From a virus (lineage: Duplodnaviria > Caudoviricetes), in IMG/VR virus record IMGVR_UViG_3300035703_000078, positions 4,288 through 68,287 of that record: a stretch of 64,000 bases of DNA. The stretch is one strand, 5' to 3'. This document shows, one piece after another, positions 13,562 through 33,013 of this stretch; position 1 is the first letter of the stretch; every line of letters starts with the position of its first letter. The position numbers and the translations under genes were made by a program. The notes under the pieces are model-generated. The model saw only the letters and a program-made list of their open reading frames with translations. It did no database searches and had not been told where the DNA came from.

Positions 13562-13567
13562 AGTACA

Positions 13568-13625: not shown

Positions 13626-13639
13626 GGAATCTACCTGGG

Positions 13640-13764: not shown

Positions 13765-16700
13765 TTACTTCAGTGAGTCTGGAGCTTTAATTGGTGTTGT
13801 TGCTTCTTTTTGTAGAGATGAACTTGTGCTTGGCTTAGGTCCAACCATGACTTCGCTGGTAGAGGTTGTTTCTACTGGCTTCTCTGGTACTGGAGTTTCT
13901 GGAGCTGTTAGACCTAGGTTTGGCATTTGTTTCTTTTTAAACTGATGCATGTATTGCTGAAGTTTATTATTCATTTCAGTTTGATACAATGACTTAAGTA
14001 TAGCCTGTGCTATATTGTTTGGCGTAGGTAGTTGCATGTTTTCGTATTCAGCATAAGCTGTAGCAAATGCTGTATTCATTGGTCTACCTTCGCTATTGCG
14101 TCTTCCAGAATCAAAGGAACCCATTGTTTGTTTCTTTGCTTCTGTAGCTAGGCCCTGATTAATTAAAGTTTTAAACCAAGCTTGATTTAGAATTGGTAGT
14201 AAATATAATCCACCATTGTAAGCTGACTTAATTCTTTCTTCATCTGACTGTGCATTGATAAAGGTATTGGTATTGGTTGCTAGGTTCTTTAGTAATCGTA
14301 CCATAGCAGTAACACCTAGCGGTGCAATCTCTGGTTCTAATCCCTTGTTACCAGCAACTGTATCTGCCAAGAACAAGGAAGTATCCAACAAGAAGTTGCC
14401 CTGTAAAGTAAACATGGGGTTTCTTACTGCTGCTTTAGCAATAAGTTTAATTGTCTTTTCAGATGGTTCACCCCTTAGTAATCTTTCAATTTCGTCCCCA
14501 GCAAGGAACCCGCTGGCTGCTGCAAGCATAGTTTGATACATGATATCGGTAATGGTGTATACCAACATGAGTCCAGCCATCTTTGATGTAGACATTCTGG
14601 CACTGTTTCGTAGTAACATCTGACCAGCAAATAGAATTGAATATGATCTATACAAGCTTAAGAACTTGCTTAATGGGGAGTCATCTGTTACACCATCAAA
14701 AGCTGAAGAAGATATTAATGACTGTTTAACTGCCAAGTCTTGGAACTTTTCAATAGCTCCTACAGCTTGTATTAGCATTTGTTTATTTACGGTAACACCA
14801 TCTACATTAACGCTAAAGTCTTTATCAAGATCTAGGATTTTGTCCATATACTGAGAAATACTAATTGGTCCTGATTGCTTTAAGAACTTAAGGCTTTCGA
14901 TAACCCCAACCTCAAACATACCAGCAGCTTTCATTCGTAGGATTGTTTCAGGTGAAGATAGCTTTCTAAAACCGTTGTTCTTTAGCTTCTTCATCAGAGT
15001 TACATATCCTCTATAGTTACCAGATTCCAATTCACCATCAATAAGCATACGTCTTACTTCTTCTAGGTTGTTAGTATTTAGTTGTCTATTGAGTTGTACT
15101 AATGCAGTTTTAGCCAAAGCTGTTCTTGCAGAGATAGATGTTGACATATTTAGTGCTTGGTTAAAGCTTAAGAATCTACTAGCCAGTCTTCCGGTTTTTC
15201 TAGTAAAGTCTACTTCACCATATAACTTTTCCCATGACTCAACAAAGTTACTGTTAGTATCCCAGAGTATTTCTGCAAAGTCGGCAAAGTCACCACGAAC
15301 CTGGGTTTGTTTCCATCCATCACTAAATGCACCAAAGCTTAATCTAAGTACATCTCCAATGTATCTGCCATAGAAACCAAGTACACCACCAGCACCGCCC
15401 AGCATCATAGCACCAACAGCTGCTGCTGAAGAGTCTACAAGAATACCAGCGGCAATCTGGTTACCACCCCAGATTAGGTGGGCAGCTTGTGTTGTAAACT
15501 TAATTGCATTCTTACCAATGGCATCACCAGATACGGCAGAACGCATGTTCCACATATACTGATACTTGTGCTCCAATACTGTTAAGGCATCACTAAGTAA
15601 CTTGACTTCTGCTTGTGATAGGGGTTTAGCTCTTACGCCTTGTTCGGTTCTTTCAAACTGACCCTGTGATATATGAGATCCAGTTGGTCTATTGGCTCCA
15701 TCAACATATGCCTTTAGAATCCTAATTAGTTTAAGAACATCATACCCCTGTACCCCAGTCATCTTGTAAATCAATGAACTTGATACAGCTTGCTGACCTA
15801 GGCCAGATCCAATTGATTTAATAATAGATCTTATGTCTCTGGAGAAGCCACTACGGATAGATCTCATTTCTTCTACGCCTAGTACTTCAGTAAAGTTATC
15901 ACCAAAGATATCATCTACTGTTAGGTTAATGTCATCCTTATAAGTAATAGCAGCAGAAGAACCAATAGTATTTAAGAAGTCTATTGCTAGTAGTTCTGGA
16001 ATTGTATTTGTAGATGCACTAAAGATATTTCTTTCTTCTTTGATCTTAATTGGGAATCTCTCAGAACGCATAGCTTGAAGCTTTGCTTTCATATTAGGTG
16101 GATTGCCAATATCAGAAGTAATGGTATTCTTTATTGCATTCTGGATTATCTTTACCTGTTCTGGGGTAATACCGGAAGAATGGGCTGTAAGCAATCCAGT
16201 TACAGTAGCTGTTCTACTGGTGCTTGCTTCTAGTAAAGCCTTGTAGCCTTTCTTTAAATCTTTCAATGCAACCGAGTTTCCAACAGTTGCACCCGATCTA
16301 ATCAGATCCTTTTTAGTTGCTAGATCAACAGATCCTTCTTTAACTTGAGCAGCATAAGAAAGAATAGAGTTAAATATAATAGCCTCTACTGAATTTGGAT
16401 TAGTAGATCCACTTGCGTTTCTTTCAATAAAACTAATAAACTCTTGTTCTGAAGACATGTCTGATGAGTTAGATGTCTTAAGTGTTGGTAACCCGGAAGT
16501 CAACATAAATGTAACCGGATGTACTCTATCAAGATCTTGTAACTGTGAAAGTTGTTTTGCTCTGATTAAAGAAGATACAGATTGAATAAACTGCGTTCTT
16601 CTTGTTTGATAACCAGCTTTATTCTTTTCTTCTCTAAACTGATCAATATCTAACTTAAATGCAAGGTAGCTATCATGGAATGGTCTTGATCTATCTTTTA

Positions 16701-19700
16701 GATTAGCATCTGTAATTATTCCATGTAATAGTTCTGAAGACTTACGATATGTATCTCCAAGTCTACGGATAGCAGCTTGTTCCTTTTCATTGAATGAAGG
16801 ATCAATCTTACCGCTGGCTAGGTAACTAAATGACTCTAGGATAATATCTCCAGATCTATTAGTTGCGCCTGGTACTGGGATTGCTGAAGAAAACTCTGAA
16901 ACAATTTGGTTATAAACAGAAGATACTTGATTAACCAATAGATTTACTTGGTATTGGTTTTGTTTAATACCATCCAATCCACCGTTACCTTCAAAGTATG
17001 AATCTACTGTTTGTGCTTCGGCATCAATTAAGTGCGCTAATGATACAATAATACCAAAGGCAGAGTTATAGGTTTGGCCAGATTGATTACCAGTTACAAG
17101 ATAAACAGAAGTAGAAATCTTCTGTAGTGTTTGGATTAATCTATTTCTTGCATGTCCATCGTCTTGCATAGACACAGTGCCTGAGAATAGATTCATCATT
17201 TGTCTAGCTAGATAAGCAGCTGTACCTGGGCTATCGACACGCTTGCCACGAATTTCTGACAGCCTTCTAATAATATGATCTGCCAGTACAATCTCTTCTT
17301 CTGTTGTTTCTGCATAATCAAACTCACGACCTACAACATCATTTCTGTTGCGTAGCCTAGTTAATGTATCATAGTATAGTTCATCAGAGATACCTAAGTG
17401 GTCTACATTGTTCTGCCACTTATCTCTAATAGAGTCTAGTTCTCGTTTAACTCTAGCATATTCTGCCGAGTTTGGATCCAGTGTACTAAGCTCTTGAGTT
17501 AATCTTCTGTACTGATTCTGATTTCTTTCTTGCTCTTCAAGATAAGTAGTACGCTCAGCCAATGTTGAACCGGGATTATAATATACATCCGCATTTGAGA
17601 TAATAAAACTTTCTTCAAGTACATCATCATATACAGCTTTGTCTTCCATTCTAAGATCTGAAGTAGCATCAAAGAATCCGTTAAAGACTCTGTTTACTTT
17701 GTCGGATACACCAACAAATCTACTACCAGTCATTTCATCTAAGAATGTAACTAGATTATTTACAAAGTATTCAATGGATTTAAAGGTTCTCTTCCACCAA
17801 GAATTAACCTTACTAGCTATATTGTTTTCTTCCTCTATAGTCTTTAGCTCAACACGATCTTTACCCATTGCTCTTGTAATAAGCATTTGGCTTCCCCACA
17901 TAACCAAAGCTTCTTCCAAGTTTTGTTGATAGTAAGAAACTAGTTTAGTGATTTCATTTCTAGTTAGCACCCCACCAGCAAAAGCATTAGTAACCATTTT
18001 TTCTATTGCTTCTTGCCCGGTGTCTGTCATTAAGCTTTCAATTGCTTCTTCATAACCAATCCTATCTCTAATCTTAGAATAGTTTAAAGCAATATGAGAT
18101 AGCTCATGTGCTATTACTTCAATAGCTTGTTCAGTTGTTTTGCCAGCAACTGCTGCTTTAATTGTATCTGGAGACTTGGCAAAGACAATATTAAATACAT
18201 CGTTAACCTTACGGATTTTAGCTAATCTATTTCCTTCAACACTATCTATGCTAATAGTCAAGTGACCTTCAAGTTCTGGATGCTTATGTAAAATAAATCC
18301 AACCATAGCTCTATACATCTGTTCTGTCAATGCATCCAACCCTAAAGACTTAATTTGATTATTTAATTGTTCACCTGAATTTACAAATGTAGACAAGAAT
18401 ATTGTTTCATTGCCAAACTTATTGGCTGATTCTTTTGGTCCAGTTCCATAGAATGAAAGACTTAATTGAGAATCTTCTTTTAAGTTTTTAATAGAGTGAG
18501 AAACAGCTAGTCTAACTTTATTCTGTTGTTCTGCATTTAGTTTTTTACCTTTTTCTTCCTGATTAGCAATAAACCGAACAGTAGCATCTAGTTCATTTAG
18601 TTGATCAGTTGGAATATCTAACTGCTGTAAGAAAGCTCTAACTGGTGTATAAAACTCATTAGACTGTGGATCTGTAATGCTTCTAACTACATTTAGAATA
18701 ATTTGGATATCACTAGTTAAAGCATCAACCTTAGCTTTTGAAATACCCTCTCTACTAAACGTGTAATCAACAAGAGCTCTAATAGCATTGAGTTCCATTG
18801 TTGGCTTTGATATAGCCAATGAAATAATTGGAAGTAGTTGTCTAATCTCTTGAGCATTATTATTTAAAGTACTGTTAATAGTATTTAAAGCAGACTTAAG
18901 ATTGTTATTTTCAGCAATTGCTATAGCTCTTTGAAGTGGCATAAGCAAAGCTAGTTCATATGCTTTTACAGTAAATGGTGTAGATCGACTATCTAAATAC
19001 TTAGTAGAAATTAGATTAAAGTTTTCTTTAGCTAAGTATCTAATAGAGTCTAAGATTTCATACTGAACATTATATCGAGCATCATACATACCACCATCTA
19101 AAGTATACAGTGGAGATAGTCCAGCATGAAGAGCCGAGAAAACTGTAGCTTCATCGGCTTTTAATTCTCTAGCCCCATTGTAATATTCTAATGTTCTTTG
19201 CAGATTGCCACGCTCTAGGTTTGATTTCTTTTGACCAATTGATTTATTAGTAGCATAAGCAAGTTCAGCCTGGTTTAGTATAACAGAGTTTCGTAGCGCA
19301 AGTAACAATGAGTTTAACATTTCTGGTGTGAACGCATACTTTGTTTTACTATCATTAACATTTACTTGTGGAACTGGACCAATGGCTGTTTGAATATCCA
19401 TTGTATTAGGTGTTGGTGTATCTACAACAAGTTCAGCTGTATTTTGATACTCATTATAAAGTACATATAGTCCTACGGATCTTATGTCAGCTTCTGTAAA
19501 CTCTGGTCTACTTAGAATTTCTGGTAGCAATGTAACTGCTGCGTTTGCTGGAATTGATTCCGGTATTACCTGACCAGCAGGATCAAACTCGACACCAGCA
19601 ATATTTCTAGCCTTGACAAGTTCAGTGGCTACTTGTTTTACTTTTGTTAGGTTGTAAAGAATAAATACAAGGTTAACAGCATCCATAGCTTGTACGGTTA

Positions 19701-22700
19701 CTGGTAGTGTTCTTGTGTTTTCGTCAATAGGTTGCGAGTCGGGTCCTGCTACTCTAGTTCTTGATGAAACAGTAAGACCATACTTAAGACTTCCTAATTG
19801 TTCTGATGCATCAGACAACATTGTAAGAAGGTTGTAATATGTGGGACTTCCACGCATGCCCTTAAACATCTTTGGATTAAACCCACCAAAGTAATTAAAG
19901 TCTAGCTGTGTTACATCCTTATCCATTGTATTGTGTTGATACTCAATGATATCAAACATGGATGTTAAGAACTTTGATACACCTAAGTTATATTCAGATA
20001 CTAAAGTATTTTCATCTGCATTATAAACCTTACCAAGTTTTCTTAGTAGTGGGTAACCACCTCGGACATGAGCCATTCTAATGAAATGAACAGCAGCCCA
20101 GTTTTCTCTACCTCGCGGTAAGAGATGCATTAATCCATTTTGCTTTGCAAACCTATAAAGTCTGCTTTGAATTCTAGCTTGCTCAACGGCAAGTTTAGTT
20201 GATACATCTGTTAGATTAGTAAGTAAACCCAGTGACATAAGTTCTCTTGGAACATATGGTAAAGATTCTGGGTTTACTGTATGAGTGTAACCTATAGCTT
20301 GTTCTGGAATAATATCTGTTACAGAACTTGGTGCTTTATTCTTCTTACTTGCCCTTACCCAGTTTTCATTTTCTTTATCAATACGGCGTTCAATAGCCAA
20401 TTCTGCTAAAGCGTAAATAGGTAGATCTGTAATATCAATATCGGCAGTCTTGGGTCTAAATGCAAATATACCCATCTTTTGATTAGACTCTTCAAATGCT
20501 TTACTGGTATCCCCAATAACTCGGGATGGAGAAGCAAGGTATCTTAATCCCTGCTCTAGTAGCAAGCCGCGCTTACGGGCTTCTTTAATCCAGTTCTTGG
20601 CGTTAGGTCTTGCACCACCGGGTGTAACAACGGATTCAATCTGAGCCTCTGCCTGGGCTGTTCTTAGGGTTTCTATACTACGCCGTCTGGCATAGAATTC
20701 TCTTTCCTTTTTACTAATGCGCGACCAATCTTCTAGGAATCTTTCAGGTGTCTCTAAAGTTTTATCATTATAGTCATTAGCCATATACTCAGTAGCCAAC
20801 CGTAATTCATATTGCTGTAGGACTAATTGAGTAATGTATCTACGGGCTTCTTCTGGATTTTCTCTTGCTAGTCTAGCAAAAGAAAACTCGTCAATTTCCC
20901 ATAAAGCTGTAGTGTTTACATCGGCTGGATCAAAAGGAGCTGGGGTAGCAACTTGAGAATAAGAAGGACCCTGGTATGAAATACCAGATGGTGTTGTGTA
21001 CATACGACCACCAGCCAAGTCTCTGGCTAAACTCTGGAAGAAAAGATAGTTCCCAGAATTACCAAGATAGTCATTTACATTAACACCAAACTCTTCTGTA
21101 GCTTCTCTAATAGCTTCTTCTCTAATCCTAAGTGGTGTTCTATTAGCAGTGTTTATAGCAGCCAATAGCGGTAAGTCTTTCCAAGCCTGGGGATCTCTAC
21201 CCATAATCTCAGCTAGCTTAATATATTCTCCACGGGTTGTAAGAGTACCACCCTTAGTTCTTACATACTCTCGACCCGCGTTAATTCGGTCAGCCCACAA
21301 TTTAGCAAGACGTTGTTTCTTATTATTAATAGCTGACTCTAAAGATCCAAACTGCATAATATCACTAGGTTTTACCAACATTCTTGCAGCTGCATCAATA
21401 CGAAGATTGATAAGATTAGTTAGTGTTGTATCATCAATGATACCGCGACCAAACTCTGTAGATCTTCCCATTTCTTCAAGAACTGCATGATGTCTTTGTA
21501 TACCATCTTTGTAGAAAAGTTTTTTGTTCCACTCATCTAGTTGTTGTTTTAGTTTAGTTCTACCTTCGACCGAAATATTTATTGTTTCGTCTATTAACTT
21601 AATTAATCCAATAACGCCGCTAAACTCAGCATCCTTTAACAAAAAATTAATATCAGCATTGTTAATAACAATAGATGGGAATGTTTCTTTAAACTCTGGA
21701 TCTTGAGTTTTTTCAAATAGAGCTTGTGAAATACTAGGAATACCGCCCTGATACAAACGAGGTAATACAGCAGCTTTAAAGAAATCTCTAAAGGTTCTCT
21801 TAGATCCTGTTTCATCCATGCTGTTTAAAATAGCATTCCACTTTTCTAATGAATCAAACTTAGCTTGTTCATCTTTAGTTAGCGGTGCTGTTTGTTTTCT
21901 TTCAGATAGTTTAACATACTGCTCTGCAATATTCTTTTGGACTTGAAGAGATACTTGAGTATAAAAGTCATCCTTGTTAGCATCTACAGTTGACCACCAT
22001 TCAGAAAGATTTAGATTTTTTATAAGGTTTGCTACACCTCTAGTACCTACGTCGTTTGGAATATTGTAAGCCAACATTAACATTAACATGTGGTGAATAC
22101 CGTTAAAGTCAAAGTCAAAGTAATCTATATTCTTTAATTGCAGTTTACCAGCTTGAATACCCTTAGCTGTTTCTTCAAGTGATGTTTGAATAGCACCATC
22201 AGTAATACCATATGTTTGATACCAACCCAACTGAGCTACAAGTTGACCGTTGATAATTGATCGTGCAGACCAAGCACCAGGTGATGCTTCTAGTCTGGAG
22301 AATTTTAAACTCTTACCATCATTATCTACAACTACTTTTGTTCTTAAGAATACAGAGTCATGCACTACAGCAACACCAATTGCTGGTAAGTCTAGTAAGG
22401 TTTCTAGAGTTCTATCTAGTGTATCTTCAATTGTTGGAAGCTCATTAAATAACTGTCTGTTATTTACCGTAGGGGTAATATCGGGAATTATTGTTGTTGA
22501 CTTAGCTAATACAGAAACTCTACGCATATACTCAGCCCCACGAATGTCGGCTAGTTTCTTTCGTAGTTCTTCTTCTGACAATCCTTTGTATCTATCACCG
22601 TTTAGAATATGGTTTATTCTTTGCCGTAAAGCCCAGTCATTGTATACTTCTTCATATTGCTTAAGAGATATTGGAGCAAACATAGATACATTTTTTCTAT

Positions 22701-25700
22701 GTGGTTGTCTAACTTTTATAGACTCAGATAGATTCTTTGCATTGTTTTCCAGGTCATTCATTGTAGATAGTGGAGTAACAAATGCTTGCTCTTCAATAAA
22801 TCTAGAATCCATAATACCATCTCGCCTACCCATTGCAATCTGAGCTATAGCATATCCTACATTCCAAGCAGGAGCATAATCAGTATTACCATTACCAAAG
22901 TCTGTTATAGCTTTTGCTTTAACTGATGGCAAGATTACTTCGTTAATAAAAGCTTTAATGTAGTCTGCTTGGGTTTCTGATCCAGTCTTTTCTCTAAATC
23001 CATACTCAACAATCTTTTCATTCATTCGAGAAACTATCTGATCGGCTGGTACTTTATCCCCTGCCATATCTAAGTAGAACTGATTAAATGCTTCAATTAC
23101 TGCTGCTTCATACTGAGACTCAGCTGTTGTACTGGTAGTTGCTTCAATATATTTTGGTTCGCCTTCAATGATTGAAAGAATAAACTTTGGTTCTCCATCA
23201 GAACCAAGTAAAGCTTTCTTTGCTTCAATACCAGCTTGTCTATGTGTTCTCATTAACTTCATCTGAGTAACAAGAACTTCTTGTTCTTTTTTAGTAAGTC
23301 TTTCGGCTTCTTTAATTAAAGTTTCTCCAACTACAGCTGTATCTGGATCTGCTCTTAAAGATAAAGACATATGCAATAGCAACTGATCTCTAACTGCCTC
23401 TGTATTAAATAGCAGTCTAGATGTTCTTTCAGCATTATTAGATTCACCAACAAAGTTATTTATTGCTGGTTGTACTCCAGGTGCATTGTACTCTGAAAAA
23501 AATCCATTAAAGTTACTATTTGTGTTACTGTGGAAAATAGCAAGTTGCCACGTTTGAAGTGGATTACTTAAACTTAAATTTACAGTACTCTTATCTACAT
23601 TGTTTACATTAACAGTAAGATTTCGTGATGGGTTTGATTTTAGGTTTTCAATAATCTCAAATACCAAATCAGAGTCGTTTCTAGAATACTCTAGTGCCTT
23701 TAAAGTTTCTTCTTCTGTTTTTGCTGCAAGTAAAAGATCTACTACACTTGTGCCAGTTACGCCTTTAATCTTTCCTCGACCAAGTGTTGCTGTTGCAAGG
23801 TTGTCTAAATTAACAGTAGCTCCATATTGCATCTTAATCCAAGCGTACATATCGTATGATCTTAAAGCAACCCGAGCGGCTAGATTTGATGATTCTTCTG
23901 TACCGATAGATTTAGCAATACGAGCTAAATCAAATCCAACATTATTAAATCCAGCAACCTTCCATCCCATATTTTGCATTAATTCTAAAGAGCGTAAGAA
24001 TCGCAGTAGATCTTCTTTTGAATAAGCAGTAAAGTTACCAATAGAACCCTTAGCTGGATTTGAAACAAGCTGTTCAATAGAAGGATCAAGTCTTTCTTCT
24101 GTTGCTGAGTGTCTAATAGAAATCATAAAGATCTCATCACCCCTTGTTTCAATATCAAATGAAATAACTCTATCCCAGTTTCTTGCGTACTCATCTGGGT
24201 TTGCTACTTCAGGTAAACCCTTAATTGCCCTTGGATCCATACCTAAATTAGCAAAAGCTTTTTCTAATGCTGGCGGTACAGGTAAGCTAGATAAAGCCGG
24301 AGCTGTTAGTCGTGCTACAGATGTTGCAGTTACAACAGCACTACTAAAATAGATGTCTGGATTTAGTAGGTGTAACTGTGGTCCTAGGGCTGCTAAAACC
24401 ATATCTCTTGACATGTGCTCTGAGAACTGTGGTAGTTTTCTCAGTGTTTCTACACGCTCTAAGGCTTGCTTTAACATTACATAAAGCTTCTTAAAATCAG
24501 TGCCTTCTTTAAACTCTTTAATCTTTTGTTCTCTAGTACTAAGAGTTTCTTCCTTAGCTTTGCTGGCTGTTCTAGCCTTTGGCATAACAGTATCGTTATT
24601 TACCTGGTCTTCGTTTTCAATATCCATGTTATTGCTAGCTGCTTTTAGATTATCTGCTAACATTTGATCTTCTGGTGAAAACTCAAAACCTAAAGCAATG
24701 CCATTTGAAAAAGCCTGATCTATTGCTAGATTAGCTAATGTATTAAAGATAGAAGATAGTGTATTGTTATCTAGTTCAGTGCTTCCCTTTAAGGACTTTG
24801 CTTTTTCTTTTGGATTAACTTTATTGTGGGTATCAATAATTAATTGATCAATAGAAACACCCAAGTCTCCAATTACTGCTTTTAGTTCTGCTACAGTAAC
24901 TTTGCCGCCCTTTTCTTTTCTAATAGCATCCAACAAAGCCTTACTTGTATTAAGCACCTGAATACCCTGTTTGGCTAATTCAAACAATTGCTTATCATGT
25001 TCTAGGGTATTACGAGAATCAATTAGTTCATTTAGAGCAAGGCGGTATGTAGATGAGTTTTTATCAATCTCAGAACTAAGTTCTTTAACTGCTTCATATA
25101 GAGATATTTGACCAGCTGAGTCTGCTTTCTGTTGCTTTCTAAATGCCTTACTTAATAAGATTTCATTTGTTTTTGTGGTAGTTTCTTTGACATTCTCATC
25201 AATCTTTTTTTGAATTTCTTTTTTCTTTTCTGGGTCTGTTTCTCTTTGAAGCTCACCAACTAAAGCAAATCTAGTATTGTTTAGTTGTTTAATTGTCTCA
25301 TTGTTTGAAGCCTCAAATTCATAAGACGCATTAACAGCATTAAGTAAAGCTTTAGTTTTTTCTAGTCTACCTTCAAACTCTATGTTCCTAATAAATCTAC
25401 CAGCATTTCTATTCTGATTTTCGGTTGCTTCTATTTTTCTAATTAATCTATTAAGTGTTCTTGCTTCTTTAATTTTACCTTCACTAAGGAACTTACTCTC
25501 TAGCTTTCTTAGTTTTTTCTTTAGTTCTAGAGTTTCCTTTGTTTTGAATCCCTCGGCAATAAGTACTTTACCTTCCATATAAGCTTGCCACTTAGACCAT
25601 AAAAAAGTAAATTCAGACAGATCATCATTAGTAACTTTAGTTATATCACCCCTAGCTCTTCTAAACTTTGAAATTAGTTTATTAAGCTTATCAATATCTG

Positions 25701-25872
25701 AAGTTGTAAATAAAGAATTAGTAAGGGTTTTTGATACCAAGTCGGCAGATGCATCGGTTTCAACAGACTTTTCAAATAAAGAAACAACAGTATCAATTGT
25801 TTCAGGTTCTGCACCACTTGACTTTAATTCTTCTCGTATCTTGTTTAAAACCTCTTCGCTGCATTTGCCCAT
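13765..25872 (-). CDS. giant internal virion (gp16-position) polyvalent protein: DEDDy exonuclease, T7/N4-family RNAP-like module, HExxH zincin motif
   Basis: 4035 aa; last of the internal virion genes; FD573IE, GFNNVGFD, YSRND; T1135VNNR, D1253FDFNGIHH, R1362DFFK1366AAVLPRLY1374; H2589ELSH; hydrophobic C-terminal region. Confidence 0.75.
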   Translation of the reverse strand: MGKCSEEVLNKIREELKSSGAEPETIDTVVSLFEKSVETDASADLVSKTLTNSLFTTSDIDKLNKLISKFRRARGDITKVTNDDLSEFTFLWSKWQAYMEGKVLIAEGFKTKETLELKKKLRKLESKFLSEGKIKEARTLNRLIRKIEATENQNRNAGRFIRNIEFEGRLEKTKALLNAVNASYEFEASNNETIKQLNNTRFALVGELQRETDPEKKKEIQKKIDENVKETTTKTNEILLSKAFRKQQKADSAGQISLYEAVKELSSEIDKNSSTYRLALNELIDSRNTLEHDKQLFELAKQGIQVLNTSKALLDAIRKEKGGKVTVAELKAVIGDLGVSIDQLIIDTHNKVNPKEKAKSLKGSTELDNNTLSSIFNTLANLAIDQAFSNGIALGFEFSPEDQMLADNLKAASNNMDIENEDQVNNDTVMPKARTASKAKEETLSTREQKIKEFKEGTDFKKLYVMLKQALERVETLRKLPQFSEHMSRDMVLAALGPQLHLLNPDIYFSSAVVTATSVARLTAPALSSLPVPPALEKAFANLGMDPRAIKGLPEVANPDEYARNWDRVISFDIETRGDEIFMISIRHSATEERLDPSIEQLVSNPAKGSIGNFTAYSKEDLLRFLRSLELMQNMGWKVAGFNNVGFDLARIAKSIGTEESSNLAARVALRSYDMYAWIKMQYGATVNLDNLATATLGRGKIKGVTGTSVVDLLLAAKTEEETLKALEYSRNDSDLVFEIIENLKSNPSRNLTVNVNNVDKSTVNLSLSNPLQTWQLAIFHSNTNSNFNGFFSEYNAPGVQPAINNFVGESNNAERTSRLLFNTEAVRDQLLLHMSLSLRADPDTAVVGETLIKEAERLTKKEQEVLVTQMKLMRTHRQAGIEAKKALLGSDGEPKFILSIIEGEPKYIEATTSTTAESQYEAAVIEAFNQFYLDMAGDKVPADQIVSRMNEKIVEYGFREKTGSETQADYIKAFINEVILPSVKAKAITDFGNGNTDYAPAWNVGYAIAQIAMGRRDGIMDSRFIEEQAFVTPLSTMNDLENNAKNLSESIKVRQPHRKNVSMFAPISLKQYEEVYNDWALRQRINHILNGDRYKGLSEEELRKKLADIRGAEYMRRVSVLAKSTTIIPDITPTVNNRQLFNELPTIEDTLDRTLETLLDLPAIGVAVVHDSVFLRTKVVVDNDGKSLKFSRLEASPGAWSARSIINGQLVAQLGWYQTYGITDGAIQTSLEETAKGIQAGKLQLKNIDYFDFDFNGIHHMLMLMLAYNIPNDVGTRGVANLIKNLNLSEWWSTVDANKDDFYTQVSLQVQKNIAEQYVKLSERKQTAPLTKDEQAKFDSLEKWNAILNSMDETGSKRTFRDFFKAAVLPRLYQGGIPSISQALFEKTQDPEFKETFPSIVINNADINFLLKDAEFSGVIGLIKLIDETINISVEGRTKLKQQLDEWNKKLFYKDGIQRHHAVLEEMGRSTEFGRGIIDDTTLTNLINLRIDAAARMLVKPSDIMQFGSLESAINNKKQRLAKLWADRINAGREYVRTKGGTLTTRGEYIKLAEIMGRDPQAWKDLPLLAAINTANRTPLRIREEAIREATEEFGVNVNDYLGNSGNYLFFQSLARDLAGGRMYTTPSGISYQGPSYSQVATPAPFDPADVNTTALWEIDEFSFARLARENPEEARRYITQLVLQQYELRLATEYMANDYNDKTLETPERFLEDWSRISKKEREFYARRRSIETLRTAQAEAQIESVVTPGGARPNAKNWIKEARKRGLLLEQGLRYLASPSRVIGDTSKAFEESNQKMGIFAFRPKTADIDITDLPIYALAELAIERRIDKENENWVRASKKNKAPSSVTDIIPEQAIGYTHTVNPESLPYVPRELMSLGLLTNLTDVSTKLAVEQARIQSRLYRFAKQNGLMHLLPRGRENWAAVHFIRMAHVRGGYPLLRKLGKVYNADENTLVSEYNLGVSKFLTSMFDIIEYQHNTMDKDVTQLDFNYFGGFNPKMFKGMRGSPTYYNLLTMLSDASEQLGSLKYGLTVSSRTRVAGPDSQPIDENTRTLPVTVQAMDAVNLVFILYNLTKVKQVATELVKARNIAGVEFDPAGQVIPESIPANAAVTLLPEILSRPEFTEADIRSVGLYVLYNEYQNTAELVVDTPTPNTMDIQTAIGPVPQVNVNDSKTKYAFTPEMLNSLLLALRNSVILNQAELAYATNKSIGQKKSNLERGNLQRTLEYYNGARELKADEATVFSALHAGLSPLYTLDGGMYDARYNVQYEILDSIRYLAKENFNLISTKYLDSRSTPFTVKAYELALLMPLQRAIAIAENNNLKSALNTINSTLNNNAQEIRQLLPIISLAISKPTMELNAIRALVDYTFSREGISKAKVDALTSDIQIILNVVRSITDPQSNEFYTPVRAFLQQLDIPTDQLNELDATVRFIANQEEKGKKLNAEQQNKVRLAVSHSIKNLKEDSQLSLSFYGTGPKESANKFGNETIFLSTFVNSGEQLNNQIKSLGLDALTEQMYRAMVGFILHKHPELEGHLTISIDSVEGNRLAKIRKVNDVFNIVFAKSPDTIKAAVAGKTTEQAIEVIAHELSHIALNYSKIRDRIGYEEAIESLMTDTGQEAIEKMVTNAFAGGVLTRNEITKLVSYYQQNLEEALVMWGSQMLITRAMGKDRVELKTIEEENNIASKVNSWWKRTFKSIEYFVNNLVTFLDEMTGSRFVGVSDKVNRVFNGFFDATSDLRMEDKAVYDDVLEESFIISNADVYYNPGSTLAERTTYLEEQERNQNQYRRLTQELSTLDPNSAEYARVKRELDSIRDKWQNNVDHLGISDELYYDTLTRLRNRNDVVGREFDYAETTEEEIVLADHIIRRLSEIRGKRVDSPGTAAYLARQMMNLFSGTVSMQDDGHARNRLIQTLQKISTSVYLVTGNQSGQTYNSAFGIIVSLAHLIDAEAQTVDSYFEGNGGLDGIKQNQYQVNLLVNQVSSVYNQIVSEFSSAIPVPGATNRSGDIILESFSYLASGKIDPSFNEKEQAAIRRLGDTYRKSSELLHGIITDANLKDRSRPFHDSYLAFKLDIDQFREEKNKAGYQTRRTQFIQSVSSLIRAKQLSQLQDLDRVHPVTFMLTSGLPTLKTSNSSDMSSEQEFISFIERNASGSTNPNSVEAIIFNSILSYAAQVKEGSVDLATKKDLIRSGATVGNSVALKDLKKGYKALLEASTSRTATVTGLLTAHSSGITPEQVKIIQNAIKNTITSDIGNPPNMKAKLQAMRSERFPIKIKEERNIFSASTNTIPELLAIDFLNTIGSSAAITYKDDINLTVDDIFGDNFTEVLGVEEMRSIRSGFSRDIRSIIKSIGSGLGQQAVSSSLIYKMTGVQGYDVLKLIRILKAYVDGANRPTGSHISQGQFERTEQGVRAKPLSQAEVKLLSDALTVLEHKYQYMWNMRSAVSGDAIGKNAIKFTTQAAHLIWGGNQIAAGILVDSSAAAVGAMMLGGAGGVLGFYGRYIGDVLRLSFGAFSDGWKQTQVRGDFADFAEILWDTNSNFVESWEKLYGEVDFTRKTGRLASRFLSFNQALNMSTSISARTALAKTALVQLNRQLNTNNLEEVRRMLIDGELESGNYRGYVTLMKKLKNNGFRKLSSPETILRMKAAGMFEVGVIESLKFLKQSGPISISQYMDKILDLDKDFSVNVDGVTVNKQMLIQAVGAIEKFQDLAVKQSLISSSAFDGVTDDSPLSKFLSLYRSYSILFAGQMLLRNSARMSTSKMAGLMLVYTITDIMYQTMLAAASGFLAGDEIERLLRGEPSEKTIKLIAKAAVRNPMFTLQGNFLLDTSLFLADTVAGNKGLEPEIAPLGVTAMVRLLKNLATNTNTFINAQSDEERIKSAYNGGLYLLPILNQAWFKTLINQGLATEAKKQTMGSFDSGRRNSEGRPMNTAFATAYAEYENMQLPTPNNIAQAILKSLYQTEMNNKLQQYMHQFKKKQMPNLGLTAPETPVPEKPVETTSTSEVMVGPKPSTSSSLQKEATTPIKAPDSLK

Positions 25873-25883
25873 TTGTATTCTCC

Positions 25884-28640
25884 TTATTTACATGCGTCTT
25901 TGTATTTTTGTAATATATTATTGAATAGATATACTCTATCAATAGTCTTTAGTCTACCAATAATTTCAGTAAGCACGGCTTCTGGGGTAGATTCTATAAC
26001 CTCGGTTGAAGGTGCTACAGCAGGTTCAGCTGCTACAGTTTCAATAGCTTCTTCTGTTATTGGAGCAGCCTCTGTTACAGGGGCAGCTTCAACTGCTGGA
26101 ACTACTTCAGCTACGGGAGCGGCTTCCATTGCTGGTGCTGCTGGTTGGCTGACAGAAGCCGCAGCAACGCTTAAAGCCCCAGCTGTAGCCACACCAAGAT
26201 CACGGGGAAGGCCGGACTCTACCTCAGATTCTGCCATTGCTTGTATTACTTCTGGAGCTGAAGCACCTAAGTCAGTAGCAACTTGTTGCATTTCTTCGGG
26301 AGATAGTAGTTCAGTTGTTGCAGCTACGGTTGCTGATGGATTGATTAAACCCAATAAAGTTTTAACTCTTTCTCTCTTACCTTTACGCCATTCGTAAAGC
26401 TTTGTAGCTAACTCTTCTGCTGACATGTTTTCTACCGTCTTAGCTGAACTTTGTAATGTTTCTAGTTCCGAGGTTTTAATAGCAATCTTAGAAGTCCTAT
26501 CATCTATTTCTACTTGAAGAATATCTTTTTCTACTTGAGAAATCTTTTTTGATCTTTTGGCTAGTTGTTCTACAAGATCTAGTTTTTGATCTTCTAAGTC
26601 TGATATTTCTTTTTGTTTGGTTTCAATTTCTGGAGTACTTCTAAACTCACGATTAAATTGTTCACGCTCAATGCTGTTCCAGAGATTAAAGATTCTTTCC
26701 TGTGTATCTGGATTAACTCTAGAATCGCTAAGCATAGCAGATAATAGCATATTAGATACATACATATCTTGATCTTCGTCTGTTAATACTTCAGTAGATC
26801 CACTATCTTGCAGTTCTTTTTTCTTTCTAGCAAACTCTTCTTTAGCTGTTTTCAAGGTGGTGTTGGCTTTTTCTGCACTTAGTCTACTAGTAGCTACACC
26901 CCAAGCAGCTGCTGTTCTAAAGTTTAGGGTTGGATTTTTTGGGTCAATAACACCAGCAGTACGCATAGCATACATCATAACAACTGAATCAGTATATAAC
27001 TGTAATTCATAGTTATTCATATCGCCCATGTTACCAACTCTAGCTAAAGATGCAGAAGCTTTTAGTACTTCTTTTAGTTCTGTTGGAAGCTTTTCAAATT
27101 GCTTCTTGGCTGCTTTACCAACATAAGATCCAGTGCCTTTGTCTATTAAACCACCTAGCTTAAAGACACCAGCCTGTGCCATAGTGGCTGCACCACCCAA
27201 TCCAAGTTCACCAACTATTTCTAATGCAATATCGTGAGCTAGGTTTTCTGTACTCCAGCGATATGTATCATCATTATCCATATTATTTAACTGGTTATTT
27301 ATATTATACCAAGCACCAGTAATAATACCATTACCAACACTGGTTCCGACATAGCTAGCGGTTTTACCGGTTATTGATGTAGCGTTTTTAGCAAACCTAC
27401 CCGCTATATTATGAGGTAACCAAGAAGTAACAACCTCAGCACCCTTCCTAAATCGCTGGACTGCATTCAATGTTTTTAAACTTGTTGATCCAATTTTACC
27501 AGCCATTAGTGCCGTTCTTGCCCCAACTAAAGCAGCCGTACTAGTACCAGCAGTTAGAGTACCAAGGCCAACAGTCACTGCAATATCTAGAGGAGCATCT
27601 ACTGAAGCAAACGAATCTCTAACTAATGGTAATACTGTTGTCTTCCAAGCATATCCAGCAGAACTCATTTGTTCTATATCTGATGACATAATGCGTTGGA
27701 AAGCATTTGTATCAATAAATTCATTTAGTTCATAAAAGAAATCTAATTCATGCCTAGTATCCTTTAATCTAGATTGAACATTAAATCCATTTGTTTCAAA
27801 CCAGGCTGCTGCGCCTGGGTTTGTTTTAGTAAAAGCTTCCCATGCTTTGTTATAGTTCCAGTTAGGATTAGCTGGCAGGTTAGCGGCTAAATCAAATGGA
27901 TCAGACGAATAATAGTTTCTTCCAAATGTATTAAATCCTTTATACCCAAATACATTTAATACTTCTTCCGCTGCATTAAACCGATCCTCTGGATCTACGC
28001 CAGGAAGAAACTGAACCCAGTTAGCAAGAGCACCATACTCAGCCCACCCTGCCATTCCCTTTAATCTTTCTAATGTTTGCTTTCTTTTTTCTGGATCTAA
28101 TGACATGTTAAGCTTGTTTAATTCTTCATAGAAAGAATCTGTATTAAACTCAGAACCCATCATTCGTAAAGCAACTTGACCAAGGGCTGTATTCTCAAAC
28201 CCAAAGATACCTTCTACATTATCCCTACCCTGTGATACCGTCCACTGTAGTTCATCTCTTGCTGGCTGACCGAATAATAATTTACCAGTAACATTGTTTC
28301 TAAATACCATTGGACCTATGTTATTTAATTCTCTGCTTCTAACTGTAGCTTCATCTGCCAGTTGATCTGTAGAACTAGGATCTCTACCTAAAGAAGATTG
28401 CCACTCTTTAGCTGCTTGCTTTTTCTTTTCTTCTTCTGCACTTTCATCTACTGGTTTAATGTAAGACTCTTTTATATAAGAGTTAATATAATCGTACAAC
28501 TGAATATCATTAGAGTATTCGTTGTATGCTTTTATATCTGCTCTTACTAATTCATTGTCTTCATCCTTAACTACTGGTATAAGTAAAGAAGAAAAATCTT
28601 TAGGATTAAAGGACTCACCTAATAAGTTGTACTGGTTCAT
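25884..28640 (-). CDS. internal virion protein
   Basis: 918 aa; Gly/Ala-rich hydrophobic segments, coiled coil, Ala/Pro/Glu linker; position in the ejection-protein cluster. Confidence 0.65.
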   Translation of the reverse strand: MNQYNLLGESFNPKDFSSLLIPVVKDEDNELVRADIKAYNEYSNDIQLYDYINSYIKESYIKPVDESAEEEKKKQAAKEWQSSLGRDPSSTDQLADEATVRSRELNNIGPMVFRNNVTGKLLFGQPARDELQWTVSQGRDNVEGIFGFENTALGQVALRMMGSEFNTDSFYEELNKLNMSLDPEKRKQTLERLKGMAGWAEYGALANWVQFLPGVDPEDRFNAAEEVLNVFGYKGFNTFGRNYYSSDPFDLAANLPANPNWNYNKAWEAFTKTNPGAAAWFETNGFNVQSRLKDTRHELDFFYELNEFIDTNAFQRIMSSDIEQMSSAGYAWKTTVLPLVRDSFASVDAPLDIAVTVGLGTLTAGTSTAALVGARTALMAGKIGSTSLKTLNAVQRFRKGAEVVTSWLPHNIAGRFAKNATSITGKTASYVGTSVGNGIITGAWYNINNQLNNMDNDDTYRWSTENLAHDIALEIVGELGLGGAATMAQAGVFKLGGLIDKGTGSYVGKAAKKQFEKLPTELKEVLKASASLARVGNMGDMNNYELQLYTDSVVMMYAMRTAGVIDPKNPTLNFRTAAAWGVATSRLSAEKANTTLKTAKEEFARKKKELQDSGSTEVLTDEDQDMYVSNMLLSAMLSDSRVNPDTQERIFNLWNSIEREQFNREFRSTPEIETKQKEISDLEDQKLDLVEQLAKRSKKISQVEKDILQVEIDDRTSKIAIKTSELETLQSSAKTVENMSAEELATKLYEWRKGKRERVKTLLGLINPSATVAATTELLSPEEMQQVATDLGASAPEVIQAMAESEVESGLPRDLGVATAGALSVAAASVSQPAAPAMEAAPVAEVVPAVEAAPVTEAAPITEEAIETVAAEPAVAPSTEVIESTPEAVLTEIIGRLKTIDRVYLFNNILQKYKDACK

Positions 28641-32995: not shown

Positions 32996-33013
32996 TATTA
33001 ACCTCCAGGTTTA

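What the first reader, a model, noticed from the sequence alone, without database searches (positions are those of the whole stretch)
19600..22480. N4-vRNAP-like polymerase module embedded in the giant ejection protein
Seen in order: T1135VNNR (compare the T/DxxGR motif), motif A D1253FDFNGIHH (compare T7 DGSCSGIQH and this phage's own DGANNGGQH), DDFYTQV (compare DLY/DIY), motif B R1362xxxK1366-x7-Y1374, and Y1625TTPSG (compare WTTPSG in the canonical RNAP). The spacing from TxxxR to motif A is 118 aa, against 116 in T7. PVTVQAMD2064A resembles PNFVHSQDG. I could not confidently place the motif C aspartate (GVEFD shortly after is only a candidate), so activity is unproven. The gene occupies the gp16 slot, so the module should be injected with the DNA (inference).
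Basis: partly seen in the sequence, partly recalled or inferred. Interest (0 to 1): 0.88.

Follow-up and report, generated by a model that had tools for sequence, protein, structure and literature searches.

The report
Shuffled RNA polymerase in giant phage protein
A 4,035-residue, almost cysteine-free protein of an uncultured T7-like phage carries the catalytic motifs of a T7/N4-type RNA polymerase, but in an unusual order, so this phage probably injects a polymerase of its own with its DNA although it also encodes a normal T7-type one.

Summary
The phage is a 68-kb T7-like virus that also has a canonical 812-aa RNA polymerase.

About 29 homologue clusters exist, most about 4,000 aa long. Motif A (D1253, G1258, H1260), D1302, motif B (K1366, Y1374) and R1623 are invariant in them.

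Standard searches (Pfam, PHROGs, PDB by sequence, Foldseek) find nothing. Profile-profile alignments put motif A and DxY in register with T7 RNAP and motif B with N4 vRNAP. In two AlphaFold models, the only confident part (aa ~1300-1423) matches T7 RNAP and human mitochondrial RNAP best of 48,161 PDB chains (Z 8.5/8.4 and 7.2/7.2).

The T/DxxGR-NPQG motif is at aa 1618-1640, after motif B, not at TVNNR. 'YTTPSG' is part of that motif.

A classical motif-C-like strand (VHDS, H1171/D1172 invariant) lies before motif A. D2097 remains a second candidate. The motif order is therefore non-canonical, and the palm could not be modelled.

Extreme cysteine depletion (1 Cys in 4,035 aa), as in T7 gp14-16 and N4 gp50-52, supports ejection. 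Activity is unproven. The scan noted similar proteins in other phage genomes.

The parts
13765..25872 (-). Giant ORF, 4,035 aa (P0001); last and largest gene of a block of four Cys-poor genes that follows the large terminase
   Evidence: 29 homologue clusters, 15 of them 3,798-4,191 aa long. 1 Cys in 4,035 aa.
22324..22473 (-). aa 1134-1183: helix plus hydrophobic strand ending in VHDS (H1171/D1172 invariant).
   Evidence: HD in 23 of 23 covering rows. hhalign against T7 770-830 scores 20.1, reached by 0 of 60 shuffles, and aligns to T7 788-814.
22090..22143 (-). aa 1244-1261: predicted beta-strand followed by motif A (D1253-x4-G1258-x-H1260)
   Evidence: Invariant in 23 of 23 rows. In register with T7 F-D537-GSCSGIQH. 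Strand E295-302 in model 2.
21604..21978 (-). aa 1299-1423: fingers subdomain with DxY (D1302) and the O-helix/motif B region
   Evidence: VIA-align against T7 RNAP 3e2e_A: Z 8.5 (567-689) and Z 7.2 (568-688). Against human mtRNAP 9mn4_E: Z 8.4 and 7.2. These are ranks 1-2 of 48,161 chains in both models.
21742..21789 (-). aa 1362-1377: motif B (R/K-x3-K1366-x7-Y1374-x2-G1377)
   Evidence: K and Y each in 24 of 24 covering rows. Aligned with the N4 motif B block (mini-vRNAP 610-691), P 0.002.
20893..21174 (-). aa 1567-1660: block homologous to T7 314-441 and N4 mini-vRNAP 329-491. It holds the 'AINxxQxT'-like motif and then the T/DxxGR-NPQG-K motif (core aa 1618-1640, R1623), and lies downstream of motif B.
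   Evidence: hhalign 26.8 against N4 and 18.7 against T7, each reached by 0 of 60 shuffles. Alternative alignments. R1623 in 22 of 22 rows.
19543..19716 (-). aa 2053-2110: 'PxxVQxxD' helix (like the pre-motif-C helix of N4 and T7) and a hairpin with conserved D2097. This is the second motif C candidate.
   Evidence: hhalign against the N4 pre-C region 21.85, reached by 0 of 60 shuffles; against T7 11.3, reached by 3 of 60. D2097 at least 90% conserved, but its context is polar and indel-rich.
23638..24168 (-). aa 569-745: DEDDy-type 3'-5' exonuclease-like domain
   Evidence: hhalign against T7 gp5 residues 1-71, P 6.4e-4. ExoI DxE kept in 13 of 16 and lost in P0013, P0015, P0017.
17878..18120 (-). 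aa 2585-2665: HExxH plus downstream Glu (E2590, H2593, E2654 invariant), a zincin-like peptidase motif
   Evidence: Weak profile match to HtpX 3cqb_A, E 0.47.
25861..25863 (-). C4, the only cysteine of the protein. A Cys at residue 3-6 is present in all 16 full-length homologues.
25884..33790 (-). Three upstream genes (258, 1,452 and 918 aa) with 1, 0 and 1 Cys; probable partner ejection proteins
   Evidence: Same order in L003. No Pfam or PHROG hit.

Best explanation
The 4,035-aa protein is the largest ejection (internal virion) protein of a 68-kb T7-like phage. Its central third (aa ~1134-2110) is a very diverged polymerase of the T7/N4 single-subunit RNA polymerase (Pol A) type.

Shown: homologues conserve exactly the residues that bind the metals, the NTP and the primer-template in that superfamily. 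These are motif A Asp, the glycine at the sugar-gate position, motif B Lys/Tyr, the T/DxxGR arginine and an HD strand. The predicted fingers match T7 RNAP.

Inferred: the protein is packed in the capsid, leaves it unfolded through the tail and periplasm (hence no cysteines), and refolds at the inner membrane. There it transcribes the first DNA to enter (the hairpin-rich early region just downstream of its gene) with ribonucleotides, as N4 gp50 does. Middle and late genes are then read by the phage's canonical 812-aa RNAP.

The motif order is rearranged: motif-C-like, A, B, T/DxxGR, then a second pre-C-like element. The active site must therefore be built from non-collinear segments.
For: (1) Conservation. 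At about 20% overall identity, D1253/G1258/H1260 are kept in 23 of 23 rows, K1366 and Y1374 in 24 of 24, R1623 in 22 of 22 and H1171/D1172 in 23 of 23. The neighbouring exonuclease motifs are lost in 3 of 16.

(2) Profile-profile alignments fall in register on the catalytic motifs.
- aa 1252-1317 with T7 536-584.
- aa 1302-1387 with N4 mini-vRNAP 610-691 (P 0.0025).
- aa 1570-1684 with N4 329-491 (P 0.0015).
- aa 1604-1640 with T7 406-441.
- aa 1149-1173 with T7 788-813.
- Column-shuffle controls reached the observed score in 0 of 60 for four of these and 1 of 60 for motif A.

(3) Structure. In two separate AlphaFold models, the confident fingers segment gives T7 RNAP and human mtRNAP as ranks 1 and 2 of 48,161 chains. 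Z is 8.5/8.4 (rmsd 3.2/2.4 over 103/90 residues) and 7.2/7.2. The ranges put D1302 on T7 D569 and K1366 near K631.

(4) ESM Atlas features of aa 1119-1579: the best named clusters carry N4_RNAP_helical, RNA_pol and vRNAP_plug, score 0.87. This is a lead only.

(5) RNAP-like rather than DNAP-like. The sugar-gate position is Gly, as T7 G542 (from established knowledge of Klenow E710 and T7 Y639). There is no profile match to T7 gp5 plus the phage's own DNAP (P 0.52).

(6) Ejection.
- 1 Cys in 4,035 aa against 112 in 12,046 aa (0.93%) in 18 other ORFs of the window; binomial P 1.6e-15.
- The three upstream genes have 2 Cys in 2,628 aa (P 7e-9).
- T7 gp14/15/16 have 1/0/0 Cys and N4 gp50/51/52 have 0/0/0.
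- The genes run small to giant in the late operon, and the order is conserved in a 46%-identical phage.
Against: - No hit in Pfam, PHROGs, PDB by sequence or by profile, phage tblastn, Foldseek/PDB or BFVD.
- PF00940 finds only the 812-aa RNAP in this genome.
- hhalign probabilities are low (0.2-27%) and rest on short segments.
- The palm is below pLDDT 50 in both models, so co-location of the acidic residues was not seen. The tools give no coordinates.
- The motif order is not collinear with any known member and is not a simple circular permutation. That could mean a decayed or repurposed domain.
- Motif C is ambiguous.
- The N- and C-terminal parts show no similarity to T7 gp16 or to the N4 gp50 terminal domains (single-sequence templates, a weak test).
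- The phage already has a canonical RNAP.
- There is no proteomic or transcript evidence.
Confidence: 0.55

Rival explanations
1. Inactive relic: the module descends from a single-subunit RNAP but no longer polymerises. It serves as a DNA- or RNA-binding or structural part of the ejectosome, for example holding the leading DNA end or recruiting the host or phage RNAP.
For: - The motif order is non-canonical.
- Neither motif C candidate could be placed in a palm.
- The phage has its own canonical RNAP.
- T7 gp16 works without polymerase activity (passages of PMC13434306).
Against: All catalytic-type residues are invariant at about 20% identity, whereas the adjacent exonuclease motifs decay in 3 of 16. 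A binding scaffold rarely keeps the metal-binding Asp, the Lys/Tyr of the O-helix and the sugar-gate Gly together.
Confidence: 0.2
2. It is an active polymerase but not an early transcriptase. One version is a DNA or primer synthesising enzyme that works with the fused DEDDy exonuclease on the genome ends (end repair, fill-in, priming). Another is an enzyme that acts late in the cytoplasm and is never packaged.
For: An exonuclease domain upstream of a Pol-A-type module is the layout of family A DNA polymerases (for the exonuclease match). Packaging is only inferred.
Against: - Motif A has Gly at the sugar-gate position, the DxxxxGxxH form of RNAPs, and Tyr at the T7 Y639 position (roles from established knowledge).
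- There is no profile match to DNAPs.
- Cys depletion argues for passage through the envelope.
- The exonuclease is degenerate in 3 of 16 members that keep the polymerase motifs.
Confidence: 0.12
3. Chance resemblance: a helical giant protein whose few conserved residues happen to look like polymerase motifs.
For: All curated-library searches are negative. Z of 7-8.5 is within the range that helical models reach by chance, according to the tool's own note.
Against: - Five separate motif blocks each align to the matching block of T7 or N4; shuffles reached the score in 0-1 of 60.
- The two best structural hits of 48,161 are both ssRNAPs, in both models and in sequence register.
- The invariant columns coincide with the motif residues.
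Confidence: 0.06

Closest known systems
Coliphage N4 gp50 virion RNA polymerase (Schitoviridae vRNAP; mini-vRNAP = residues 998-2103)
   Same: - Giant size: 3,500 aa against 4,035 aa.
- Essentially cysteine-free: 0 and 1 Cys.
- It is the last and largest gene of a small-to-giant ejection operon.
- The polymerase-type module is central: N4 998-2103 (passages of PMC4496689) against aa ~1134-2110 here.
- Motif B, T/DxxGR-NPQ and the pre-C helix align with N4 profiles.
   Different: - No similarity by BLAST, HMMER, Pfam or PHROG.
- The motif order is rearranged.
- A DEDDy exonuclease-like domain and a zincin motif are added.
- No detectable similarity to the N4 NTD or CTD.
- The phage is T7-like, not N4-like, and has a T7-type RNAP instead of RNAPII.
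- vRNAP is described as a hallmark unique to Schitoviridae (passages of PMC13434306).
T7 RNA polymerase / mitochondrial RNA polymerase (Pfam RNA_pol PF00940)
   Same: - Motif A (D-x4-G-x2-H), DxY, motif B (R-x3-K-x7-Y-G), GR...NPQG...K, an 'AINxxQxT' block and an HDS strand are all present and conserved.
- The predicted fingers match T7 567-689 and POLRMT 954-1044.
   Different: - Below every Pfam threshold.
- The order is C-like, A, B, T/DxxGR instead of T/DxxGR, A, B, C.
- The distance from the AIN-like block to T/DxxGR is about 52 aa, against about 105 in T7.
- About 400 aa are inserted before the second pre-C-like helix.
- It is embedded in a 4,035-aa protein.
T7 gp16 (internal virion protein D) and its partners gp14 and gp15
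   Same: - Largest and last of a set of Cys-free proteins (T7 gp14/15/16 have 1/0/0 Cys).
- IVP-D homologues are known to host cytoplasm-destined domains, including the N4 RNAP (abstract and passages of PMC4819975).
   Different: - No sequence similarity found and no transglycosylase domain.
- The block lies after the terminase gene, not between the tail tube and the fibre.
- There are four genes instead of three.
Permuted palm of birnavirus and permutotetravirus RNA-dependent RNA polymerases (motif order C-A-B)
   Same: This is a precedent for a right-hand polymerase in which motif C precedes motif A in sequence while the active site is kept (search listing and abstracts of PMC4666646 and PMC8310298).
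   Different: It is a different polymerase superfamily (RdRp, not Pol A/ssRNAP). Here the T/DxxGR block has moved as well, and the fold has not been seen.

Membership tests
Single-subunit RNA polymerases (T7-like, Pfam PF00940 RNA_pol) | Match to the curated family model above its cut-off | tested here: not met
   hmmscan of P0001 at E up to 1 gave no RNA_pol hit. A six-frame search of the genome with PF00940 at E up to 10 found only the 812-aa RNAP.
Single-subunit RNA polymerases (T7-like, Pfam PF00940 RNA_pol) | Motif A: strand, then Asp-x4-Gly-x2-His | tested here: met
   D1253/G1258/H1260 in 23 of 23 rows. In register with T7 D537. A shuffle reached the score in 1 of 60.
Single-subunit RNA polymerases (T7-like, Pfam PF00940 RNA_pol) | Motif B: R-x3-K-x7-Y-G on the O-helix | tested here: met
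   K1366 and Y1374 in 24 of 24 rows; R or K at 1362. Aligned with N4 motif B, P 0.0025. The structural match covers T7 567-689. A short-segment test against T7 615-650 alone failed: 21 of 60 shuffles reached the score.
Single-subunit RNA polymerases (T7-like, Pfam PF00940 RNA_pol) | T/DxxGR motif followed by NPQG...K | tested here: met
   aa 1618-1640. R1623 in 22 of 22 rows. Scores 26.8 (N4) and 18.7 (T7), reached by 0 of 60 shuffles each.
Single-subunit RNA polymerases (T7-like, Pfam PF00940 RNA_pol) | Motif C: hydrophobic strand ending in (H)D | tested here: inconclusive
   There are two candidates. VHDS 1170-1173: invariant, score 20.1 against T7 770-830, reached by 0 of 60 shuffles. D2097: at least 90% conserved; only its preceding helix aligns to N4. 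Neither was placed in a modelled palm.
Single-subunit RNA polymerases (T7-like, Pfam PF00940 RNA_pol) | Collinear order T/DxxGR - A - B - C | tested here: not met
   The order found is C-like 1171, A 1253, B 1366, T/DxxGR 1623, then pre-C-like 2057 and D2097. The phage's own RNAP has the canonical order.
Single-subunit RNA polymerases (T7-like, Pfam PF00940 RNA_pol) | Right-hand fold with palm, fingers and thumb | tested here: inconclusive
   Only the fingers subdomain is confident and matches (Z 7.2-8.5). The palm is below pLDDT 50. Foldseek gave no hit at E 0.001 or better.
N4-type virion RNA polymerase (Schitoviridae gp50) | Sequence similarity to gp50 or its N4-specific Pfam domains | tested here: inconclusive
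   tblastn of aa 1100-2150 against 50,697 phage records gave no match. The whole-profile hhalign against gp50 gave probability 0.8%. PF21894 gave no hit in the genome, but it rang nowhere in the controls either. Segment-wise hhalign did find the motif blocks.
N4-type virion RNA polymerase (Schitoviridae gp50) | Giant, cysteine-free protein that ends the ejection operon | tested here: met
   4,035 aa with 1 Cys, against 3,500 aa with 0 Cys in N4. Gene order.
N4-type virion RNA polymerase (Schitoviridae gp50) | Packaged in the virion, injected, and transcribes early hairpin promoters | not testable with these tools
   This needs virion proteomics and transcription assays. Only repeated hairpin elements in the adjacent early region were seen.
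T7 gp16-type internal virion protein D | Sequence similarity to the gp16 family or a lytic transglycosylase domain | tested here: inconclusive
   hhalign of aa 1-760 and 2150-4035 against T7 gp16 gave P 0.41-0.42 (single-sequence template). There is no PHROG or Pfam hit.

The most novel reading that the evidence does not exclude
A family of T7-like phages injects a Pol-A-type RNA polymerase whose catalytic segments are non-collinear with every known member: motif C precedes motif A, and the thumb/T/DxxGR block follows the fingers. This would be the first shuffled active site in the ssRNAP/Pol A superfamily. With the canonical RNAP, and perhaps the 625-aa early protein, the phage could run its whole programme without the host RNA polymerase.
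Probability: 0.33. Interest if true: 0.9.

Novelty: new variant of a known kind. Interest (0 to 1): 0.76.

Why it matters
Virion-packaged single-subunit RNA polymerase is treated in print as the hallmark of one family, Schitoviridae (passages of PMC13434306). Here a comparable module sits in the giant ejection protein of T7-like phages that also keep the canonical T7-type enzyme.

The phage's RNAP has many relatives on 60-72-kb contigs, including ocean survey data. If the module is active, three things follow:
- It changes how early transcription and DNA entry are thought to work in a common group of uncultured phages.
- It gives a natural example of a polymerase active site assembled from rearranged segments.
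- It offers a new, very diverged RNAP with possibly new promoter rules.

It also shows that curated libraries miss this family altogether.

Tried and rejected
Searches that found nothing for the giant protein:
- Pfam: only a sub-threshold TAC hit, E 0.097.
- PHROGs.
- phmmer against PDB with aa 525-2291 and aa 525-824; the latter gave only a designed protein, E 0.0034.
- Profile A1 against PDB: coiled-coil noise only.
- megablast and tblastn against the phage collection.
- Foldseek/PDB on both models (the best prob. was 0.25, for N4 RNAPII 6dta_A at E 0.52, not significant).
- BFVD.
- ESM Atlas on aa 959-1244: no usable hit.

Attempts to deepen the family:
- The search for homologous proteins with region 1100-2150 and with alignment A2 each gave only the same 2 proteins.
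- IMG/VR scans with P0007 and P0022 gave none. The scan with the window fragment gave 1 locus.
- As a result the alignments stayed at 18-27 rows, and AlphaFold left the palm below pLDDT 50.

Weak or failed comparisons:
- Small HMMs of T7/N4 motif blocks searched against 18 giants scored about 0 bits. Only the positions of the best hits were suggestive: T7 X-block in 7 of 13 mapped proteins at aa 1566-1640, and T7 A-block in 6 of 8 at 1253-1316. They did not separate the two motif C candidates.
- Whole-profile hhalign against N4 gp50 and against the phage's own RNAP gave probabilities of 0.8% and 1.8%.
- Comparison with T7 gp16 and the N4 NTD/CTD gave nothing.
- Comparison with DNA polymerases gave nothing for the polymerase module.

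Complex prediction: aa 1120-1700 against aa 2040-2130 gave 'no answer', score 0.00, with the controls not run. This is neither for nor against.

Readings rejected:
- TVNNR as T/DxxGR and YTTPSG as WTTPSG.
- A motif C between motif B and the T/DxxGR block. That stretch is confidently helical and has no invariant acidic residue except D1428, which lies inside a helix.
- A second motif A/B set after R1623: none was seen in the consensus.
- A simple circular permutation: the order found is not cyclic with either motif C candidate.

Papers:
- Five full-text searches found no description of a polymerase module in a T7-like ejection protein (one search was for permuted RdRps).
- Supplements were not opened. 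The supplementary homologue lists of PMC4819975 and the N4-like data set of PMC10654107 (seen only in search listings) could hold related proteins.
- Kazmierczak et al. 2002 is not held. Its motif residue numbers D559, K670, Y678 and D951 are recalled; in the fetched N4 sequence the numbering was counted out only for D951 and the TRVGR motif.

Full report
Setting. The window is bases 4288-68287 of a 68,287-bp IMG/VR virus record with direct terminal repeats, rated complete. All large genes lie on the minus strand and make a T7-like set:
- primase/helicase 61761-63476
- DNA polymerase 60059-61780
- exonuclease, then ribonucleotide reductase
- portal 54103-55707
- scaffold, then major capsid protein 43721-45067
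- tail tube B 39927-42815
- fibre 36594-39917
- large terminase 33778-35442
- four genes without any Pfam or PHROG hit, of 258, 1,452, 918 and 4,035 aa
- a GC-richer early-looking region (8,000-13,700)
- a canonical 812-aa T7-type RNA polymerase at 559-2997 (phrog_414 E 8e-159; PF00940 277 bits)

The finding lies in the 4,035-aa ORF 13765-25872 (P0001).

Observation. The comparison strings are in the phage's own RNAP.

Family. An exhaustive phmmer search of 1.84 billion cluster representatives with aa 1100-2150 found 29 proteins at E 0.001 or better (22 at 1e-10, 15 at 1e-30). Fifteen of them are 3,798-4,191 aa long and match at the same relative position. I aligned 16 full-length proteins, leaving out P0002, which is 99% identical to P0001. 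A second, 27-row set added fragments.

Mean identity to P0001 is about 20% outside its own clade. Even so, the invariant columns include D1253, G1258, H1260, D1302, K1366, Y1374 and R1623, as well as H1171 and D1172. Counting only the rows that cover each column:
- motif A residues: 23 of 23
- K1366: 24 of 24
- Y1374: 24 of 24
- R1623: 22 of 22
- H1171/D1172: 23 of 23

Is it a polymerase of the T7/N4 type? Curated libraries and direct searches say nothing:
- Pfam and PHROGs
- PDB by sequence and by profile
- phage tblastn
- PF00940 over the whole genome
- whole-length hhalign against N4 gp50 and against the phage's own RNAP, with probabilities of 0.8% and 1.8%

I then built comparison alignments of 12 Schitoviridae vRNAP polymerase regions and 29 T7-type RNAPs, and ran hhalign segment by segment. 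The local alignments fall on the catalytic blocks and in register:

| Giant protein (aa) | Matches | Content | P |
|---|---|---|---|
| 1252-1317 | T7 536-584 | motif A (the Asp on D537), then D1302-x-Y on D569-I-Y | 0.031 |
| 1302-1387 | N4 mini-vRNAP 610-691 | DxY and motif B: R, K, Y, G | 0.0025 |
| 1567-1589 | T7 314-336 | the conserved AINxxQxT block | 0.11 |
| 1570-1684 | N4 329-491 | block around TxxGR | 0.0015 |
| 1604-1640 | T7 406-441 | GR, Y, NPQG, K | 0.11 |
| 1149-1173 | T7 788-813 | helix plus IHDS | 0.29 |

With 60 column shuffles of the query as control:

| Segment tested | Score | Shuffles reaching it |
|---|---|---|
| T/DxxGR block vs N4 | 26.8 | 0 of 60 |
| T/DxxGR block vs T7 | 18.7 | 0 of 60 |
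| VHDS block vs T7 770-830 | 20.1 | 0 of 60 |
| PxxVQxxD helix vs N4 | 21.85 | 0 of 60 |
| motif A block vs T7 | 25.4 | 1 of 60 |
| VHDS block vs N4 | 12.9 | 4 of 60 |
| PxxVQxxD helix vs T7 | 11.3 | 3 of 60 |
| 41-residue motif B segment vs T7 alone | 7.5 | 21 of 60 (fails) |

Structure. AlphaFold2 on aa 1100-2150 with 18 rows gave mean pLDDT 50.6. On aa 950-1700 with 27 rows it gave 59.9. In both, only the helical stretch aa ~1300-1560 is confident (up to pLDDT 90), and the palm segments are below 50. Foldseek found nothing at E 0.001 or better.

VIA-align against 48,161 representative chains put T7 RNAP and human mitochondrial RNAP first and second for both models:

| Model | Chain | Z | rmsd | Aligned | Giant protein (aa) | Chain range |
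|---|---|---|---|---|---|---|
| 1 | 3e2e_A (T7 RNAP) | 8.5 | 3.2 | 103 | 1299-1423 | 567-689 |
| 1 | 9mn4_E (human mtRNAP) | 8.4 | 2.4 | 90 | 1302-1423 | 954-1044 |
| 2 | 9mn4_E (human mtRNAP) | 7.2 | 2.8 | 90 | 1302-1424 | 954-1044 |
| 2 | 3e2e_A (T7 RNAP) | 7.2 | 3.4 | 103 | 1301-1423 | 568-688 |

N4 mini-vRNAP was rank 47 for model 1 (Z 5.0).

The tool warns that Z 7-8 is common for helical models, so the absolute values are weak. What counts is that both top hits are ssRNAPs in both models, and that the ranges agree with the sequence register (D1302 on D569, K1366 near K631).

ESM Atlas features of aa 1119-1579 point to clusters carrying N4_RNAP_helical, RNA_pol and vRNAP_plug at 0.87. This is a lead only.

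A profile of T7 gp5 plus the phage's own DNA polymerase does not match the module (P 0.52).

I take the homology to single-subunit RNAPs as likely (about 0.85).

TVNNR does not behave as T/DxxGR: 55 of 60 and 10 of 60 shuffles reach its score. The real motif is '...GR1623..Y..xQG....K' at aa 1618-1640. In several homologues it reads TxxGR followed by NPQG and K, as in T7. 'YTTPSG' is the clade-specific filling of that motif (3 of 16).

The order along the chain is therefore:
1. a motif-C-like strand, VHDS 1170-1173
2. motif A, 1253
3. motif B, 1366
4. the AIN-like block plus T/DxxGR, 1567-1640
5. about 400 residues
6. a helix like the pre-motif-C helix, 2057-2075
7. a hairpin with D2097

The phage's own RNAP has the canonical order T/DxxGR 402, A 515, B 582-595, PNF 714, HDS 744.

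The stretch between motif B and the T/DxxGR block is confidently helical and has no candidate motif C. No second A/B set follows R1623. With either motif C candidate, the order is not a circular permutation of the canonical one.

I favour VHDS as motif C, at about 55:30. Its context is a hydrophobic strand ending in invariant HD-S/C, as in T7-type enzymes. D2097 is preceded by polar, indel-rich residues. The tools give no coordinates, however, and the palm was not modelled.

Is it an ejection protein? There is no sequence similarity to T7 gp16 or to the N4 gp50 terminal domains. Three things support the inference.

- Position. It is the last and largest gene of a 258, 1,452, 918, 4,035-aa series in the late operon. 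The same series (over 1,345 aa, 881 aa, 4,055 aa) stands in a phage contig whose giant protein is only 46% identical.

- Cysteine count.
  - P0001 has one Cys in 4,035 residues, at position 4. The 18 other large ORFs of the window have 112 in 12,046 (0.93%); binomial P is 1.6e-15.
  - Eleven of the 16 homologues have only that one Cys, and all 16 have a Cys at residue 3-6.
  - The three upstream proteins have 1, 0 and 1 Cys (P 7e-9).
  - Known ejection proteins look the same: T7 gp14/15/16 have 1/0/0 and N4 gp50/51/52 have 0/0/0. T7 RNAP and DNAP have 12 and 10.
  - Absence of cysteine in N4 vRNAP has been linked to passage through the tail and periplasm (passage of PMC3821669 citing Kazmierczak 2002).

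- Precedent. IVP-D homologues host cytoplasm-destined domains, the N4 RNAP among them (abstract and passages of PMC4819975).

Other parts of the protein:
- aa 569-745 carries DEDDy exonuclease motifs. It aligns with the exonuclease of T7 gp5 (P 6.4e-4). The catalytic residues are lost in 3 of 16 homologues that keep all polymerase motifs.
- aa 991-1019 holds an invariant DFGNGxxDYxPA block of unknown role.
- aa 2585-2665 has HExxH plus a conserved Glu.
- One hydrophobic segment lies at aa 3473-3491.

Mechanism. My preferred reading has confidence 0.55. The protein is packed, ejected unfolded, and refolds at the inner membrane. Its polymerase module then transcribes the first DNA to enter, and the canonical RNAP takes over later.

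The region just downstream of the gene holds five copies of a GC hairpin with a T-run and two 92-nt leaders with short hairpins. These are possible signals, but I did not test them.

The rivals are an inactive relic (0.2), an active enzyme with another role or place (0.12), and chance resemblance (0.06).

Comparison and novelty. It works like N4 gp50, but it is not a member by any sequence criterion and fails the collinearity criterion of the ssRNAP family. I file it as a new variant of a known kind.

In five searches I found no paper describing a polymerase module in the ejection protein of a T7-like phage. A recent paper calls vRNAP unique to Schitoviridae. Permuted palms (C-A-B) are known only in RdRps.

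This scan has noted similar things before on other DNA. Those notes describe giant cysteine-free proteins of 4,661 and 4,719 aa in marine T7-like phages, one with motif C read ahead of A and B, and a three-polymerase reading. They are unchecked AI notes and are not used as evidence. I reached the VHDS reading, before seeing them.

Limits:
- The alignments are shallow (at most 27 rows).
- The hhalign runs lacked secondary-structure scoring and used small comparison sets.
- The palm is not modelled.
- No coordinates, no expression data and no particle data were available.

Noticed in passing
window 25861-25863 (aa 4 of P0001): The only cysteine of the 4,035-aa protein sits at residue 4. All 16 full-length homologues have a Cys at residue 3-6, and 11 of them have no other. 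There is no signal-peptide-like stretch before it. Its role is unknown; it might be an acylation site, a covalent link or a processing site.
   Followed up: partly
window 23638-24168 (aa 569-745): DEDDy exonuclease-like domain that aligns with T7 DNA polymerase residues 1-71 (P 6.4e-4). The ExoI/II/III residues are lost in 3 of 16 homologues (P0013, P0015, P0017) that keep the polymerase motifs.
   Followed up: partly
window 17878-18120 (aa 2585-2665): HExxH with a conserved downstream Glu (E2590, H2593, E2654 invariant), a zincin-like peptidase motif inside the giant protein. It could serve self-processing or wall or envelope work.
   Followed up: no
window 22816-22902 (aa 991-1019): Invariant block DFGNGxxDYxPAxxVGxxxAQI (G993, D998, A1002, G1006, Q1011, G1019) upstream of the polymerase motifs. 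It has no match to anything. hhalign weakly aligned it with the post-motif-B fingers of T7-type RNAPs (P 0.02).
   Followed up: partly
window 10550-12427 (-), and L003 20879-22753: A 625-aa protein in the early region is conserved downstream of the giant gene in L003 (198 of 625 identical). It has no Pfam or PHROG hit. It shows only weak but collinear hhalign matches to ssRNAP motif A, B and C regions (P 0.15-0.32).
   Followed up: partly
window 9863-13656: Five copies of a 45-nt element with a GC-rich hairpin and a T-run on the coding strand (9863, 10497, 12521, 13065, 13269), and two 92-nt leaders (12997, 13565; 86% alike) that hold short hairpins. All lie in the region just downstream of the giant gene.
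   Followed up: partly
window 8001-13000: G+C is 49-56% here against 34-45% in the rest of the window. The early region has a composition of its own.
   Followed up: no
window 25884-33790: The ejection-type genes (258, 1,452 and 918 aa; 1, 0 and 1 Cys) follow the large terminase gene instead of lying between tail tube and fibre as in T7. There are four such genes rather than three.
   Followed up: partly
window 559-2997: The canonical RNAP has 638 relatives at E 1e-10 or better. The 120 listed are 50-93% identical, many sit on 60-72-kb contigs, and some come from ocean survey data. This phage group therefore seems common, while its giant protein family has only 29 clusters at 50% identity.
   Followed up: no
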